This document shows, in pieces, positions 41,781 through 50,700 of a stretch of DNA of 64,000 nucleotides. The position numbers were made by a program. The stretch lies in contig NW_026782299.1 of assembly GCF_031769215.1 (NCBI RefSeq), forward strand, positions 1,798,001 to 1,862,000. The letters run 5' to 3'. This DNA comes from Ylistrum balloti. Lineage: Eukaryota. Every line of letters starts with the position of its first letter. Positions within the stretch are counted from its first letter, which is position 1.

Positions 41781-44700
41781 ATAAAAACTTGTCAACACAT
41801 TCATATAACTTTAAAACCGAGTGATTTAATATGGAATGTATAAATGTACATAGTCAATAACCCCGATAATTAACAGAATGGTTGTTTCCCGAATGACACA
41901 ATATTCCGTTAGGATGAATGAATGACAGAAAAGTAAATACAGCACACGATTGTAGTAACGGGAAAATAAATTTTGTTTAAACTCCCGGATGGCTACACAT
42001 TTAGGAATTACAAAGCATAAATTGTTCCAACGTTTCCTTTGATACGTTTAAAATAATAATTATCAACTCTTGTTTTCGGTATTCACTCCTACTTTACATA
42101 TGTCAATTGCTTATTGTGACGTCATGCATAATTTGCCTTCCATGACGTCATTTTTAGTGTCTTATTAAGCCTTCCATTAGATATGTTTGCTGGCGACTAG
42201 CCCCTGGGATTGACAAGGAGATTTAACGTAGCTGCAACAGCAGTCAGACCTTTTATATCTTTTACTCACTATATAATAACAGTTCTTATTCAAAAAGTTA
42301 AAACCATGTCAATTTCAAATCTACACGGCTTCCTATTTCTTCCATGACGTCACAATTCCTCGTGAAGATGAATCTTTGGTTTTTCCACCACATCTCTATC
42401 GTTTTCCTCTTCGTCTCCCTCGTCTGCGCTGACAATTGATGGCATTTTCCTCACGTACTCCTTCTTTGGTTTGATGTCCTGGACATGGACAAATTCAGAC
42501 TGGTATTTATTTTTCTTAAAAACAGCCTTACCGAGTTCATCCACCAACTGGTTGAGAATGTTCTTCCTTTTGGTGAAGTATTCCACAGTTTTCGGAAAGG
42601 TCACCTCTGTAAAGAAATAAATACTCACAGTTCATTTTTCAAGTTACACGATTGTAGATACAGGTCTAAAACATCGATTATTGCTTTATTTTTTGTTTTT
42701 TCGATTTTGTATATTTTATTTAATGGTGACATTCGGGTAAATAAGACTAACCGTCAGTATATGCAAGGGCCTTCAGAACTGCCATTCGTTCCTCGTCTAG
42801 CGTGTCCACTTTTCCGTGGTGTTCTACAAACTCCAGCAGATAGATATAATAATCAGCAAATCTAAAACAGACAGATATTATTGAACTGAAGCCGAATCAT
42901 GTTTTATTTTTTTTCAATACAGAACAAGTACATTTTGTCATCGTTGAACCAACACCAAGTTGTATTTCAACATGAAATACATAAGATGCTTCATGACTTT
43001 ATTCAAATTGTTCAAAGATGCAAATAACTGTAAAGAAAATTTCATTAACGTTTGAATATAATCAATTAAAAGATAAAATCGACAGAATATCATGTCGTGC
43101 TAAATCGGTCCCTTCGGCACCTTCCGTGTAAGAAACGACGCACGTCACATTTACGGAAAGTGACGAAGGTTCTCGATCCTTACAACGGAAACCAAATATG
43201 CTCTTATCTTGATAGGTTTAAATGATATTTTTAACACGTTTTTTTTCTTCAAATATTTCAAACCATTTCTGTCGATAAGATTAACCCACGTTTGATACAG
43301 AAATGCCGATATCCAAACCACCGTCGTTTATGTAGTCCGGAGGGGACATTTTGAGATAGTAGCATGTCAAGAGCCGATCAGCTATTTATAGATTGTCAAC
43401 GAATGCATCATTTATCTAGTGTTTTACCAAACATTTACTTTTTCATTACACGCACATTGATATTTGATTGACAGGACCATAAAGGTACTGACAAGTATTT
43501 AAACTGAAAAGTCATTCATTTGAAATTGAGCTTCATTTGTCATTTACTGCATACACGAGATGCAAAATGCACTGAAATATTTAAAATTGTAAGGTAAGAA
43601 TGCCGATATGATATATGTGACAACTGAGCAAGAAAACTAGAAGACAACTGGAAATTAGTCTAAACCTTCCCGCTTCAAATTCTCAGTCACAATCAACATC
43701 AATTTCAGGTTAATATTACATCAACATCGACTCATGTTTGTACCTTTCGCATAGATGATGATGTTCATCAATTCCATCGTGAGATATTCGCTGCGTGAAA
43801 GTGCAAAATTCATAGGAATCTTAAATATTAGACAAGAATGTCCGTTCTATGTACTATGGTACATCGCGCTTCGTCGCTGCTATATTGAATGTCCCCTCCG
43901 GACCAGGTAAACGGCAGTGGAAATCGTTACATCGAATTTCTTAGTAACATATAGGGTGGTTATTGTACGATATACTTACTCATTCATTTCGTATTTCTTG
44001 GCGATATCTTTAGCTGCTACCAGTAGTTCACTCTATAGAAGATAATTTCAGTATCAGTTATCGTTGTGGGCAATTTAACTATTTGGATAAGGAACAATAT
44101 ATAGCCAAACATCTACTACGTAAACAAATCAATTATCATTCCTTGTTTTGTAAATAACGAGGATATGAAAAAAATATCGTGAATGAAGTGAGAATTGAAT
44201 AATTTGATATTTCTCGAGCGTTTCAAAGTTAGTCTTTACATAAAACACAATTTCCATATTTAGATTTCAACGGAAAATACGCATTCGCTAGGCATGTGAC
44301 GTCATTATTAAGGATAAAGATTAAATATTTTAAATCAAATTGCCATAACAGTTTTTTTTGTGAAATACACAATCAATACTAGGTACAGCATGCGGCAAAA
44401 GCAAAAAATTTCGTGCATATTGATATATACTTGATATTTGATACAGGTCATATTATTCAGAAATGTGTTCCATTGTGAATATTTTTTTCAATAATGATTA
44501 ACACGAGGTGCCAGTCCCCTCCCCCTTCCAAAGCCCTTGCGTGCCGAGATTACCATCTGAGTGGCTTTCCTGATGACCTCGATGTTATCTGCGATGAGGT
44601 TATCGAAGTCAGAAATACGTCCTGCCTGAAAATATTCCATGTTATAAATGTTGACAAAAATGTTTCAGCAAGAGATTGTTTAAACGTTTTTTTATAAACG

Positions 44701-47700: not shown

Positions 47701-50700
47701 TAGAAGATGTGTGGCATGGTGAACGTACATAATATTGAACTTGTGAAACCGAATTTGCATACCCTACTTTTATGAGTCTATACATTTTAATCCAAATGTA
47801 CAGAATGTCTGATTCACTTACGAAGACAATGCATTGTAAGTAAAGATTTGGTACAAAATGTAACTTATTATTTTGTGTTCGAGTTAATGGATTACACAGT
47901 ATAAATACATATTGTCTATTAGTATACCTAATCTAGATAAGATTCGTATAACCCTTTTTACCAATTATTCACAACATATTTTACCGATATGAAACTATGC
48001 GGGAAAAACATATATGATAGCAGTGCAAAACTGTTGTTCCTCCCATAATGTACAATGTGGGTGTTGGAAATCCATCATTGTGATACTTACTTGATTTTGT
48101 GACTAACACCAACAAAAACTTCTTTTTATCCAATAACTGAAAACAAAAGATAAATAACTTAAAGAACTTACATCGTAAGGTATAAACCATACAAAATTAA
48201 CTGTATAAATGTTCGTAATACCTCGGCAAATTTCGTTTAAACTCGTAACCGAGTCTGCACGGAATTTCCCGAGATGACTTGATTGTGAATCAATCTATAT
48301 TATTTTGTATTGTTTACTTAACATTTTGATATTTTAGGAATACGATGAAGTCGGTGTAAATTGTTTTGCTTGCTACACACATGTACACAATACAATACTA
48401 CAGAGACAGTTGACAACAGCTGGGGCAGGCTTCAGTGTAAGACGTGTGAGTTAATTTTGGTCGATTTTACGCATCTGTCACCATCGCTACATCTTTTCTT
48501 ACTCACGAATTTTACTCTAATTCTAACTTCGTTACTCTGTGTAATGTTATAATTCATGTAAACCCGTTTAAAATCAGAGGTCTCCATTAACACCAAATCA
48601 TTAATTGCACAATGCTGCAAATATAAATGACAAATTCTTAATAAAAATACAGTTGTTTACATACCGAAAGGTTCCTAGATTTTACTATAATACATGTGTA
48701 TGTCTCTCGATAAACTTTATAAAGCTCACAATAAGGACAACTTCATTTTTATCTCTTCACATTAATTATGAATAATGATTAAATTACTAGTAATCAAACA
48801 AGATAAAAAGTTTGTACCATGTGATATCACACGGGAAACTGAAGACAGACAGGTGTATTTTGATAAGTTTTTGTCATGTAGTCTGTTTCAATCCCTCAAC
48901 CCTATCACGAATTCATCAACCATATCGAATCCATCAACCCTATATCGAATTCATCAACCCTATATCGAACCCATCAACCCTATATCGAATTCATCAACCC
49001 TATATCGAACCCATCAACCCTATATCGAATCCATCAACCCTATCTCGAATCCATCAACCCTATATCGAATCCATCAACCCTATCTCGAATCCATCAGCCC
49101 TATATCGAATCCATCAACCCTATATCGAACCCATCAACCCTATATCGAATCCATCAACCCTATATCGAATCCATCCACTTTTGATCATAGACTTTTTAGC
49201 TGGTAGACGTATTCCTTGTGTCACGTAAGCATGTAAATTGACTATTTCTATGAAACTCTTGTAAATCTTCAAACTAAAGGGTAAAGTTTTATAGTGTAAT
49301 CCATGCGTGAAAATATGAATAAATAAAATATCGTAACCAAAGACCCAAGTCCAATGAAATGAAACATTTACTGAATATAGACCAACTTACCGAGTGTATA
49401 TTTTTCTCCGTGATATTGAGAACATGTCCAGAAACCACACTAAGGAAACACACGAGTAGTAAACTGGTCAGTGTTATCTTGACCGGCTTCATTTTCTTTG
49501 TGATGAATGTTTGTATCACGTAAGTAAAATTAATACGTGTTTCAACAGTTCAATACTACCGAATCAATCTCTGGTGTTCATCTGTTCCTCCGAAAATTTT
49601 GCTAAAATATTTCCTTTCTCAGGTAAATTTTCTTCGAGAGCTGTATGTTACATGAATATGCCTTTTTTGTAGTAGTTTTAATATTTTACATTGATTTATT
49701 GGAGACACGTGTTTCGCATGGCACGTATACAACGCCGCCAGATGTTACCTACAACTTCCACGAGTGACCTCCCTTGTCCCGTTAATGATATAATTTGCTG
49801 TGCGAAAAAGGATCTTGAGCTTCGATTTTATACTTTCTTCACTTGAATGTCTTCAAATTCGTCCCGAGCGGTACGGTTCTTTTGTGATATATAACCACCT
49901 GATAACCTACATATATATACCAGTGGTTCATGGCCGCCATTCAGGCATTTCTGCGCTGTTTTATTATATTTATTGGAATTTTACAAAACATTTCTCGTTT
50001 ATTTGCAATCTCTATTTGTATAATGATATTTTCAAAGCCCTACATGTAAGTTGGAACAAAAATAATCAAAATTATAGTATTACGGTTACCAAATTACAAA
50101 TGTTTTCATTTTGTTTTACATATCAAACGTCATGTTCAAAATCTTCAGTAATCGAACTTTAGTTGTCTCATTTGTGGCCACACAAATTTCTATATACAGA
50201 AATTCTGATCAAGTCGTGTGTGATTCACGCACAAAATCAGAATACATGATAAATGTATTTAAAACAATATTCCCCTTCTGGAATCTGACTGATGTTAAGT
50301 ACGCTTTCTCATTTATCCACATAGTAAACAGTATTAGTCCTGAATCTGAAAAATCTGTCGAAGCTATTGGAAACAATAAGATTTTTAACATTTCGTTTAA
50401 AAAAACGCAAGTATTTTAAACACCAACTTGGTGATATTTCAGTTAAGTTTCCTCCTGTGCTGGCAAAAAAGGTACAAGTAGGTTTTAATTAATTTTTTTC
50501 TAATTATTGGATATGTTAACAACAATAACAAAAAAAAAAATCAATGTAAATTCAATTTTGTACATTTGTATTTCCATGGAAATTGTTACTTATTCAAGTC
50601 ACTAACAGACAAAAAACTGCTGTAAAACTTTCACAGAGTTTAACCTGTGTCAAGTTACTACGCGATTGAAAATGTGGCAGCAACCTTCAGCTGTCGCTGT

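What the first reader, a model, noticed from the sequence alone, without database searches (positions are those of the whole stretch)
42350..49492. Animal PDI with the Trx-Trx-D architecture typical of fungi, plants and amoebae
Seen: signal peptide, two Trx folds, the TG..R..DG.L...AG linker, an ERp29-type helical D domain, an acidic tail and HEEL. Established: the a-a'-D layout marks fungal TigA/ERp38, plant PDIL2-1 and Dictyostelium PDI-D, whereas vertebrate ERp29 and Drosophila Windbeutel have one Trx plus D. Inference: a retained ancestral PDI-D lineage in a spiralian, bearing on the origin of ERp29.
Basis: partly seen in the sequence, partly recalled or inferred. Interest (0 to 1): 0.65.

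Follow-up and report, generated by a model that had tools for sequence, protein, structure and literature searches.

The report
Divergent animal PDI-D family protein
A scallop gene encodes an endoplasmic-reticulum folding helper laid out like the two-thioredoxin-plus-D-domain enzymes of plants and fungi, but it keeps only one, altered, active site, which shows that this protein type survives in some animals in a half-inactivated form.

Summary
Window 49492..42350 (minus strand) is an intact 11-exon gene with GT-AG at every intron. It is identical to RefSeq 'uncharacterized protein LOC132554902 [Ylistrum balloti]' (419 aa). The protein has a signal-peptide-like N-terminus, two thioredoxin folds, the TG..R...G.L...AG hinge, a helical ERp29-type D domain, a disordered charged tail and HEEL.

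The D domain is supported. Pfam ERp29 is below cut-off for this protein (17.5 vs 24.3 bits) but above it in 10 of 20 relatives scanned. A D-only family profile finds only Windbeutel and ERp29 in the PDB. Foldseek ranks 1-11 are all Wind or ERp29.

The family aligns end to end with canonical two-CGHC PDI-D proteins (hhalign E 7e-60).

The interpretation needs correcting in three ways:
- There is only one CXXC, C-T-P-C in domain 1. Domain 2 has none, so the layout is a-b-D, not a-a'-D.
- The clade is not spiralian-only, because amphioxus has a member.
- The link to the origin of ERp29 could not be tested.

Orthologues in two other scallops already carry the automatic name 'protein disulfide isomerase-like 2-1'. 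I found no paper describing such an animal protein. Verdict: a new variant of a known kind, of moderate interest.

The parts
42350..49492 (-). Whole coding span of the gene (11 exons, 419 codons plus stop); identical to RefSeq LOC132554902 of Ylistrum balloti
49391..49492 (-). Exon 1: start codon, signal-peptide-like residues 1-22, first strand of Trx domain 1 (includes the N-I-T sequon)
   Evidence: signal peptide read from the sequence, no predictor run
48091..48136 (-). Exon 2 (46 nt): LLDKKKFLLVLVTKS, the beta strand that leads into the active-site loop of domain 1
46621..46789 (-). Exon 3: domain 1 active-site helix and cis-Pro loop (VFPT). It is the only exon piece that passes Pfam Thioredoxin on its own (24.9 bits against a cut-off of 23.5)
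46776..46787 (-). Codons 51-54, C-T-P-C: the only CXXC of the protein. C54 is invariant and C51 is at least 90% conserved in the 19-sequence family alignment
46121..46299 (-). Exon 4: end of domain 1, inter-domain link, first strands of domain 2. The RefSeq donor TGGT|GTATAA is at 46121; a stronger in-phase donor ACA|GTAAGT lies at 46130
45749..45810 (-). Exon 5: helix of domain 2 at the place where canonical proteins carry WCGHC...; there is no cysteine here
45199..45248 (-). Exon 6 (50 nt): VSFLHFDVRTEPELRKQ, the central strand and helix of domain 2
44797..44956 (-). Exon 7: cis-Pro strand of domain 2 (AFPSLFW), last helix, and hinge TGVSRSKDGSLPSK (44838-44797)
44554..44625 (-). Exon 8: AGRI end of the hinge and the first helices of the D domain
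43980..44032 (-). Exon 9: D-domain helix (SELLVAAKDIAKKYEMN)
42752..42861 (-). Exon 10: D-domain helices (ADYYIYLLEFVEHHGKVDTLDEERMAVLKAL)
42350..42606 (-). Exon 11: last D-domain helix with the K.NIL motif, disordered mixed-charge tail, HEEL (42364-42353) and stop (42352-42350)

Best explanation
This is the scallop (Ylistrum balloti) gene for a soluble ER-luminal member of the PDI-D family, the family of plant PDIL2-1/AtPDI11, fungal ERp38/TigA and Dictyostelium PDI.

Shown:
- A signal-peptide-like N-terminus.
- A thioredoxin domain with one conserved cysteine pair (C51-T-P-C54).
- A second thioredoxin-fold domain with no cysteine pair, i.e. b-type.
- The family hinge TG..R...G.L...AG.
- A helical ERp29/Windbeutel-type D domain.
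- A disordered charged tail ending in HEEL.
- Membership of a long-branched clade of 350-425 aa proteins. Its 16 core rows share this a-b-D layout; the four basal rows (two amphioxus, P0021, P0042) keep a CXXC or CxxxC remnant in domain 2. The only named members are three scallop species and amphioxus. The nearest ESM Atlas cluster is mostly molluscan.

Inferred:
- The clade descends from a canonical two-site a-a'-D ancestor whose catalytic sites have decayed. Basal members still hold CXXC or CxxxC remnants in domain 2. Domain 1 has lost the Trp, the His, the buried Glu and the Arg of PDI active sites.
- The protein is retrieved to the ER through HEEL.
- It works more like an ERp29/Wind-type escort chaperone, with a b-D client-binding module, that keeps one accessory redox or structural disulfide. 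It does not work like a two-site oxidase such as AtPDI11 or ERp38.
For: Gene and identity:
- The exon-7 ORF piece hit P0001 at 98% identity.
- P0001 maps to 11 exons, with GT-AG at every intron.
- Orthologues are 71-74% identical (BLASTP; 72-75% in alignment A1) in Pecten maximus and Mizuhopecten yessoensis, both named 'protein disulfide isomerase-like 2-1'.

Family:
- The profile search of 1.84 billion representatives gave 838 hits at E<=1e-3 and 19 at E<=1e-30.
- In the 16 core rows there is one non-canonical CXXC in domain 1 and none in domain 2, and the ends are HEEL-, REEL- or HDEL-like.

Homology to canonical PDI-D: hhalign of 19 family rows against 24 canonical rows gives probability 100%, E 7e-60, 347 columns, 7-360 aligned with 9-363.

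D domain:
- Pfam ERp29 is above the gathering score in 10 of 20 family members scanned.
- An HMM from 8 canonical proteins hits P0001 258-353 at 25.3 bits, and hits 18 of 21 family rows.
- The family profile finds Wind at E 4e-8.
- The D-only profile has 12 PDB hits at E<=1. The best 8 are Wind (5 sequences, about 1e-6) and ERp29 (5e-5 to 2e-3).
- The AF2 D model has pLDDT 86. Its Foldseek ranks 1-11 are all Wind or ERp29, probability 0.93-1.0, TM 0.75 against 5v8z; every other hit has probability <=0.18.

Tree: the 20 family rows form one clade (SH-aLRT 99) inside the 78 D-bearing rows (94), apart from the 6 no-D outgroup rows, which include a PDIA6-type protein.

Atlas: the nearest cluster has 141 members, commonest phylum Mollusca, and 61% carry PF07749. 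The next clusters are fungal and plant Trx+ERp29 clusters.

Loss of catalytic residues: the canonical E of VEFYAPWCGHCK aligns with L45, and the canonical Arg of GGR aligns with I111.
Against: - For this very protein Pfam ERp29 is below the curated cut-off (17.5 vs 24.3 bits). No D exon hits it alone.
- Foldseek E-values for the D model are weak (0.2-1.4). The whole-protein fold search did not list Wind or ERp29 among the 50 rows shown.
- Nearly all clade members are unnamed, so 'animal clade' rests on the four scallop proteins, the two amphioxus names and the Atlas's 'commonest Mollusca'.
- The tree is a quick search with SH-aLRT only. The branch that joins the clade to particular canonical rows is weak (93, length 0.077).
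- Against the chaperone-like reading: the cysteine pair of domain 1 is conserved across about 25% identity, which argues for a retained redox role.
- Against calnexin/calreticulin docking: the Arg invariant in 24 of 24 canonical rows (KExxRL) aligns with Ala325 here. By my recollection of the human sequence, that Arg is the position of ERp29 Arg223, which PMC7687155 calls indispensable.
- No expression, localisation or activity data were examined.
Confidence: 0.8

Rival explanations
1. It is a fully active a-a'-D oxidoreductase equivalent to plant PDIL2-1/AtPDI11 or fungal ERp38, as the architecture alone suggests.
For: The layout is the same and collinear. NCBI's automatic name for the orthologues is 'protein disulfide isomerase-like 2-1'. 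The domain 1 CXXC is conserved.
Against: - Domain 2 has no cysteine pair in P0001, in its three scallop relatives, or in any of the 16 core clade rows.
- Domain 1 lacks W, G-H, the buried Glu and the Arg.
- The XX dipeptide varies freely (TP, AP, EE, KL, RE, ED, DA, KK, TR, PM, SK, AR).
Confidence: 0.08
2. It is a paralogue specially related to ERp29/Windbeutel. Either ERp29 arose from this a-b-D clade by loss of domain 1, or this is the molluscan ERp29 counterpart with an extra N-terminal domain.
For: - The b-D half has the ERp29 layout.
- The family profile aligns with Wind over b plus D in two entries (profile 167/181-355 with Wind 50/62-234).
- The only PDB matches of the D profile are Wind and ERp29.
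Against: - Pfam ERp29_N gives no hit at E<=0.01 to domain 2 of any core clade member scanned. It does hit ordinary a-type domains of canonical proteins (P0028 31.5 bits, P0037 25.6, P0144 35.3).
- The Atlas ranks ERp29 clusters (0.91) behind fungal and plant PDI-D clusters (0.92-0.93).
- No tree with ERp29 could be built.
Confidence: 0.15
3. It is a divergent member of a well-known animal PDI subfamily of similar size (PDIA6/P5, ERp44, TXNDC5).
For: The whole-model Foldseek top hits are ERp44, ERp72 a0a, PDI and ERdj5. PDB sequence hits are a-domains of PDI, PDIA4, PDIA6 and ERp44.
Against: - Those matches cover only the Trx domains.
- The third domain is helical and ERp29-type, not a Trx b domain.
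- The PDIA6-type row P0096 (PF24541, 33.1 bits) falls in the outgroup, separated at SH-aLRT 94.
Confidence: 0.03
4. It is a recent horizontal acquisition or a contaminant from a fungus, plant or protist, and not an old animal gene.
For: The nearest recognisable relatives outside the clade are fungal and plant clusters.
Against: - The gene has ten GT-AG introns with animal-type repeats inside them.
- It lies in a 64-kb window that also holds a PB1 and a PDZ ORF, suggestive of a Par-6-like gene.
- Orthologues sit on contigs of 2 to 44 Mb in three scallops, and there are homologues in amphioxus.
- The clade has a long private stem (0.85) and does not nest within a fungal or plant group.
Confidence: 0.03

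Closest known systems
Plant PDI-S / PDIL2-1 (Arabidopsis AtPDI11, soybean GmPDIS)
   Same: Signal peptide, two tandem Trx folds, the TG..R...G.L...AG hinge and a C-terminal five-helix D domain. The alignment is collinear over about 350 residues. NCBI names the scallop orthologues after it.
   Different: - The plant proteins have two CGHC sites and are efficient oxidases whose D domain binds calreticulin (PMC8836223, passages). The scallop protein has one CTPC and no second site.
- The scallop protein lacks the buried Glu and the Arg.
- It carries HEEL, whereas AtPDI11 has no KDEL-type signal (same paper).
- The canonical KExxRL Arg aligns with Ala325.
Fungal ERp38/TigA and the variant Erp41 of Komagataella
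   Same: The a-a'-ERp29_C layout. Erp41 shows that the family tolerates non-canonical motifs (CSHC and CGYC; PMC10938136, abstract and passages). Several of my tier-2 hits have such motifs.
   Different: All described fungal members keep two CXXC sites. Here one site is gone and the other is CxPC, thioredoxin-like, without Trp or His.
ERp29 (PDI-D beta) and Drosophila Windbeutel
   Same: An inactive Trx-fold domain followed by the D domain, with a KDEL-type end. Wind and ERp29 are the only PDB sequence and fold matches of the D region.
   Different: ERp29 and Wind have one Trx-like domain and no CXXC. This protein has an additional N-terminal CXXC domain and the long hinge of PDI-D alpha. Pfam ERp29_N does not hit it.
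Dictyostelium Dd-PDI (PDI-D alpha)
   Same: The a0-a-D modular structure cited in PMC3017771 and PMC8836223 (passages).
   Different: According to those papers Dd-PDI is retained through its D-domain C-terminus without a KDEL signal. Here a HEEL tetrapeptide is present. Dd-PDI itself was not compared directly, because no stored sequence was available.
PDIA6 / P5
   Same: Two N-terminal Trx domains in tandem, similar length, ER retrieval signal.
   Different: The third domain of PDIA6 is a Trx-like b domain (PF24541). Here it is helical. The PDIA6-type row lies outside the D-bearing group in the tree.

Membership tests
PDI-D family in the broad sense (Trx domain(s) plus ERp29-type D domain) | C-terminal all-helical D domain homologous to ERp29_C (PF07749) | tested here: met
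   - Pfam scores 17.5 bits, below the cut-off, but aligns end to end, and is above cut-off in 10 of 20 relatives.
- The canonical-only HMM scores 25.3 bits.
- The D profile finds only Wind and ERp29 in the PDB.
- Foldseek ranks 1-11 are Wind or ERp29.
PDI-D family in the broad sense (Trx domain(s) plus ERp29-type D domain) | Hinge TG..R...G.L...AG between the last Trx domain and D | tested here: met
   TGVSRSKDGSLPSKAG is present. R247, G251 and G258 are invariant or nearly invariant in the family and align with the invariant R254, G258 and G265 of canonical rows.
PDI-D family in the broad sense (Trx domain(s) plus ERp29-type D domain) | Groups with D-bearing proteins rather than D-less PDIs in a tree | tested here: met
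   The 78 D-bearing rows separate from the 6 no-D rows at SH-aLRT 94, and the clade of 20 has support 99. This is a quick search with unnamed rows.
PDI-D alpha / PDI-S / ERp38 (redox-active a0-a-D) | Two tandem thioredoxin-fold domains before D | tested here: met
   Pfam Thioredoxin with 2 stretches; AF2 model; hhalign collinearity.
PDI-D alpha / PDI-S / ERp38 (redox-active a0-a-D) | A CXXC (typically WCGHC) active site in BOTH Trx domains | tested here: not met
   There is only C51-T-P-C54 in domain 1. Domain 2 has none in P0001-P0004 or in the 16 core clade rows. W50, G52 and H53 are invariant in 24 of 24 canonical rows.
PDI-D alpha / PDI-S / ERp38 (redox-active a0-a-D) | Catalytic support residues of PDI a domains (buried Glu before the site; Arg in the loop after the last strand) | tested here: not met
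   The canonical E aligns with L45 and the canonical R (R117 of P0026, invariant) aligns with I111. That these residues matter for catalysis is established knowledge, also cited in PMC3017771.
ERp29 / Windbeutel (PDI-D beta, b-D) | A single, cysteine-less Trx-like domain (Pfam ERp29_N) directly before D | tested here: not met
   Two Trx domains are present, and there is no ERp29_N hit at E<=1 for P0001. Domain 2 is cysteine-less, as in ERp29.
ERp29 / Windbeutel (PDI-D beta, b-D) | Homodimerisation through the b domain; P-domain binding through Arg223 of D | not testable with these tools
   No binding test was run. By alignment the corresponding canonical Arg is Ala325. The equivalence to Arg223 rests on my recollection of the ERp29 sequence and on PMC7687155.
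PDIA6 / P5 | Third domain is a Trx-like b domain (PF24541 Thioredox_PDIA6_C) | tested here: not met
   There is no PF24541 hit for P0001, and the third domain is helical. P0096, which has PF24541, lies in the outgroup.
Soluble ER-resident proteins | N-terminal signal peptide and C-terminal KDEL-type retrieval tetrapeptide | tested here: inconclusive
   Both are visible in the sequence. HEEL, HDEL, REEL or similar endings are kept in the clade. No predictor or localisation data were used. That HEEL is recognised by KDEL receptors is recalled, not checked.

The most novel reading that the evidence does not exclude
The clade is a surviving metazoan intermediate between the two-site PDI-D alpha of plants, fungi and amoebae and the one-domain ERp29/Windbeutel. 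It would be an a-b-D stage in which the D-proximal domain was already silenced. ERp29 would then have arisen from it by loss of the N-terminal domain before bilaterians diverged. Different lineages would still be decaying differently: scallops keep the domain 1 pair, amphioxus keeps the domain 2 pair.
Probability: 0.2. Interest if true: 0.7.

Novelty: new variant of a known kind. Interest (0 to 1): 0.45.

Why it matters
Reviews and plant PDI papers state that the Trx-Trx-D layout has no animal counterpart, and that animals have only the b-D protein ERp29/Wind (PMC8836223 and PMC3017771, passages read). This gene shows that a whole clade of Trx-Trx-D proteins exists in molluscs and amphioxus, with one active site silenced and the other remodelled.

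This gives a concrete set of sequences for testing how ERp29 arose. It also offers a natural experiment on what a D domain does when it is paired with a single non-canonical CXXC.

It is not a new kind of protein. Database pipelines already name the orthologues after plant PDIL2-1.

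Tried and rejected
1. My first hand-built exon model was partly wrong. It had 10 exons, with exon 7 extended upstream to 45057, and used the GTAAGT donor at 46130. The extended ORF piece was covered only 62% by the public protein. Orthologues confirm a separate 50-nt exon 6.

2. Pfam scanned exon by exon found only Thioredoxin in the exon 3 piece. No D exon hit ERp29 alone.

3. A sequence search of the PDB with the single protein found no ERp29 or Wind. The family profile was needed.

4. Foldseek with the whole model listed only tandem-Trx proteins. The D-only model was needed.

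Names and taxa of P0005-P0019 are therefore unknown.

7. I tested the idea that the intron after exon 4 hides a second active site (read-through W-C-I-K-C). It adds only 4.9 bits against a canonical HMM. No orthologue has it, and no in-phase donor gives a sensible domain. It is not adopted.

8. I tested the idea that the ORF upstream of exon 7 (NDDSEVV...) is an alternative exon. It gains no HMM score (20.4 to 19.1 bits). Rejected.

9. I guessed at a Tc1/mariner remnant in intron 2. Pfam gives no hit at E<=1e-5.

10. Literature searches for an animal PDI-D protein found no paper describing one. One search was badly designed and uninformative.

11. PMC15007 (Monnat et al. 2000) is not held. PMC13095759 had nothing relevant.

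Full report
WHAT IS THERE

The finding's coordinates are exactly those of a coding sequence on the minus strand. The ATG is at 49492 and the TGA ends at 42350. I first read the DNA and its stop-to-stop frames and drew an exon model by eye.

Scanned singly against Pfam, only the exon 3 piece passes Thioredoxin (E 2e-5, 24.9 bits against a cut-off of 23.5). None of the D-region pieces hits anything relevant.

The ORF piece around exon 7, searched against longer proteins, returned one protein at 98% identity. This is P0001, 'uncharacterized protein LOC132554902 [Ylistrum balloti]', 419 aa. So the window is scallop DNA; it is not human.

tblastn of that public protein back onto the window gives 11 collinear pieces at 93-100% identity. 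All eleven exons are bounded by AG and GT and add up to 1260 nt with the stop:
- E1 49492-49391
- E2 48136-48091
- E3 46789-46621
- E4 46299-46121
- E5 45810-45749
- E6 45248-45199
- E7 44956-44797
- E8 44625-44554
- E9 44032-43980
- E10 42861-42752
- E11 42606-42350

My own first model (10 exons) was wrong at exons 6-7. All full-length analyses below used the database protein P0001 and its relatives, not a sequence that I assembled.

- Signal peptide. Residues 1-22 have two lysines, a hydrophobic core and ...SG. This is read from the sequence; no predictor was run.
- Two Trx folds. Pfam Thioredoxin scores E 1.7e-14 in two stretches, and Thioredoxin_6 also hits. An AlphaFold2 model made with 19 family sequences has pLDDT 82.7 and pTM 0.77. 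It shows two beta-alpha-beta thioredoxin domains at pLDDT above 90. Its Foldseek matches in the PDB are tandem-Trx proteins such as ERp44, ERp72 a0a, PDI and ERdj5 at E about 1e-11.
- Hinge. TGVSRSKDGSLPSK|AG spans the exon 7/8 junction and matches the canonical consensus.
- D domain. See the next section.
- Tail. The last 52 residues are predicted disordered. The last 60 residues hold 14 D/E against 12 K/R with one acidic run, so 'acidic tail' is only partly apt.
- HEEL is there, at 42364-42353.

IS THE C-TERMINAL REGION AN ERp29-TYPE D DOMAIN?

- For P0001 itself Pfam ERp29 (PF07749) scores 17.5 bits, below the gathering score of 24.3. The match nevertheless runs end to end, residues 258-354 against profile positions 1-94 of 95.
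- Among 20 relatives scanned, 10 are above the cut-off, 2 are listed below it and 8 are not listed at E<=0.01.
- An HMM that I built only from the D domains of 8 canonical proteins (two-CGHC or a-D) hits P0001 258-353 at 25.3 bits over positions 1-93 of 95. It hits 18 of 21 family rows. The E-values there refer to a file of 155 proteins and should not be over-read.
- The 19-row family profile finds Windbeutel in the PDB at E 4e-8, profile 257-355 against Wind 139-234.
- A profile of the D region alone, from 8 family members, has 12 PDB matches at E<=1. The best eight are five Windbeutel sequences (1.2e-6 to 1.6e-6) and three ERp29 sequences (5.2e-5, 2.1e-4, 2e-3). The other four are above 0.09.
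- An AF2 model of the D region has pLDDT 86 and pTM 0.80. Its Foldseek ranks 1-11 are all Wind or ERp29, with probability 0.93-1.00, TM 0.54-0.62 by query and 0.75 against the ERp29 D-domain crystal 5v8z. Every other hit has probability 0.18 or less. The E-values themselves are weak (0.2-1.4), as is usual for a small helical domain.

WHAT FAMILY IS IT?

The word-based search with P0001 found three close relatives:
- Pecten maximus 'protein disulfide isomerase-like 2-1' (414 aa, 74% identical).
- Mizuhopecten yessoensis 'protein disulfide isomerase-like 2-1 isoform X2' (338 aa).
- One unnamed protein.

A profile of these four, run against 1.84 billion cluster representatives, gave 838 proteins at E<=1e-3, 142 at E<=1e-10 and 19 at E<=1e-30. 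The hits fall into two tiers.

- The top tier (about 1e-80 to 1e-38) consists mainly of proteins of 350-425 aa; it also holds two longer rows, P0010 (459 aa, no CXXC, no KDEL-type end) and P0020 (1307 aa, eight WCGHC). The 350-425 aa rows have one non-canonical CXXC in domain 1 ([DNSTG]-C-x-x-C-[KRT]), no CXXC in domain 2, and mostly HEEL-, REEL- or HDEL-like ends.
- The second tier (1e-23 downwards) is mostly 345-390 aa proteins with two WCGHC motifs and a strong ERp29_C domain, for example P0026 at 101.6 bits. This is the canonical PDI-D type.

The ESM Atlas places P0026 in clusters that are mostly Ascomycota, Basidiomycota or Streptophyta. It places P0001 next to a 141-member cluster whose commonest phylum is Mollusca (phylum known for 98) and in which 61% carry PF07749. 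The fungal and plant Trx+ERp29 clusters come next, and ERp29 clusters follow at rank 9.

hhalign of the 19-row family alignment against 24 canonical rows gives probability 100%, E 7e-60, with 347 columns aligned, 7-360 against 9-363. Domain 1 matches a0, domain 2 matches a(a'), the hinge matches the hinge, and D matches D.

A quick maximum-likelihood tree was built from 84 rows: 20 family, 58 canonical and 6 without a D domain, one of which is PDIA6-type by PF24541.
- The family forms one clade (SH-aLRT 99) on a long stem (0.85).
- That clade lies inside the D-bearing group, which is separated from the outgroup at 94.
- Which canonical lineage is nearest is not resolved (support 93 on a branch of 0.077).

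WHERE THE INTERPRETATION NEEDS CORRECTING

(a) The protein is not a two-site enzyme.
- The only CXXC is C51-T-P-C54, in exon 3 at 46787-46776. C54 is invariant and C51 is at least 90% conserved in the family. The dipeptide between them varies freely.
- The Trp before the site and the Gly-His inside it are invariant in 24 of 24 canonical rows and are absent here.
- The Glu of VEFYAPWCGHCK aligns with Leu45, and the invariant Arg after the last strand aligns with Ile111.
- Domain 2 has no cysteine pair in the four scallop proteins or in any of the 16 core clade rows.
- Functionally the layout is therefore a-b-D.

(b) The clade is not spiralian-specific.
- Its basal branch is two Branchiostoma proteins (415 aa, ERp29 38.6 bits, KHEL).
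- They show the reciprocal pattern: domain 1 is W-S-S-V-C and domain 2 is D-C-Y-K-C.
- Two other basal rows keep a C-x-x-x-C in domain 2.
- This is what one expects if a two-site ancestor lost sites independently. That is an inference.

(c) The bearing on the origin of ERp29 could not be tested.
- No named ERp29, Wind, PDIL2-1 or TigA sequence came back as a stored protein, and sequences from memory may not be used.
- Indirect signs give no special link. Pfam ERp29_N does not hit domain 2 of any core clade member at E<=0.01, whereas it hits ordinary a-type domains of canonical and outgroup proteins.

HOW IT MOST LIKELY WORKS

Shown: the domain composition, the conserved cysteine pair, the loss of the second site and of the catalytic support residues, and the KDEL-type end.

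Inferred:
- The protein is a soluble ER-luminal resident retrieved through HEEL. Recognition of HEEL by KDEL receptors is recalled, not checked.
- Its b-D half should behave like ERp29 or Wind, a client-binding or escort module.
- In ERp29 the D domain docks on the P-domain tip of calnexin and calreticulin, with Arg223 indispensable (PMC7687155, passages). In AtPDI11 the D domain binds calreticulin and is needed for full oxidase activity (PMC8836223, passages).
- Whether that docking is kept here is doubtful. The Arg of the canonical KExxRL motif is invariant in 24 of 24 canonical rows, and by my recollection of the human sequence it is the Arg223 position. It aligns with Ala325. The family has EER instead, with Arg323 two residues earlier and Lys328 at the next basic position.
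- Domain 1 probably keeps a disulfide that is either a low-activity redox site or structural. Its conservation at about 25% overall identity argues that it matters.
- I put about 0.8 on the identity statement (a divergent a-b-D member of the PDI-D family in animals). I put roughly even odds on 'mainly chaperone' against 'single-site oxidoreductase'.

NOVELTY

Two papers say in so many words that the a-a'-D type has no animal orthologue (PMC8836223), or is found in Dictyostelium and fungi 'but not in mammals', where only b-D exists (PMC3017771). I read passages of both. The Erp41 paper shows a fungal variant with unusual motifs that still has two sites (PMC10938136, abstract and passages). ERp29's alias PDI-DB appears in PMC3500226.

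My searches found no paper describing an animal Trx-Trx-D protein. The library lacks most subscription journals, and I read no supplements, so this is weak evidence of absence. On the other hand, NCBI's pipeline already names two orthologues after plant PDIL2-1. I therefore rate the finding a new variant of a known kind, with interest 0.45.

LEFT OPEN

- Any tree with named reference proteins.
- RNA evidence for the exon 4 donor.
- Orthologous gene structures.

Noticed in passing
window 46121-46044 (minus strand, start of intron 4): Reading through the exon 4 donor in frame spells ...YDNSK-W-C-I-K-C-DPFNELVKKHFKLL... before a stop. The W-C-x-x-C falls exactly on the column of the canonical WCGHC of domain 2 and adds 4.9 bits against a canonical PDI-D HMM. 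No orthologue has it, and I found no in-phase donor that would give a sound domain. It could be chance, a relic or a rare alternative 5' splice site; this is undecided.
   Followed up: partly
window 46130 versus 46121 (minus strand): The RefSeq donor of exon 4 (TGGT|GTATAA) is weak. A consensus donor (ACA|GTAAGT) lies 9 nt upstream in the same phase. Using it would remove most of the 4-residue insertion (SKWS) that the three scallop relatives lack. Junction reads are needed.
   Followed up: partly
window 45057-44957 (minus strand, end of intron 6): The frame of exon 7 stays open 101 nt upstream to a CAG acceptor (NDDSEVVDITILRATKSSTLKSLYQQ...), and loosely resembles the end of exon 5 plus exon 6. 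It adds nothing to the HMM score (20.4 to 19.1 bits), so it is probably a chance ORF.
   Followed up: yes
P0024 and P0154 (Branchiostoma proteins): The amphioxus homologues keep the cysteine pair in domain 2 (DCYKC) and have lost the first cysteine in domain 1 (WSSVC). This is the reverse of the scallop pattern. Rows P0021 and P0042 have C-x-x-x-C in domain 2.
   Followed up: partly
window 45360-45558 and 48890-49175: Two tandem arrays lie inside introns of the gene: a 28-bp unit x 7.1 copies (93% matches) in intron 5, and a 20-bp unit x 14.4 copies (90% matches) in intron 1.
   Followed up: no
window 47343-47564 (+ strand, intron 2): An ORF piece containing ...QQDNSRPHAA..., which I recalled as Tc1/mariner-transposase-like. 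Pfam gave no hit at E<=1e-5, so this stays a guess.
   Followed up: partly
window 2618-2962 and 4044-4934 (+ strand): ORF pieces with a PB1 domain (E 6.9e-11) and a PDZ domain (E 9.3e-12) lie in the same orientation. The pairing suggests a Par-6-like polarity gene upstream of the PDI-D gene; that name is my recollection of the domain pair.
   Followed up: partly
window 55866-56982 (both strands) and 26001-28000: A long minisatellite is open in both strands, with about 30-nt units spelling HNTRVAVTSD repeats. Separately, one 2-kb block has GC 0.437 and GC skew 0.593 against a background near 0.35 and 0.
   Followed up: no
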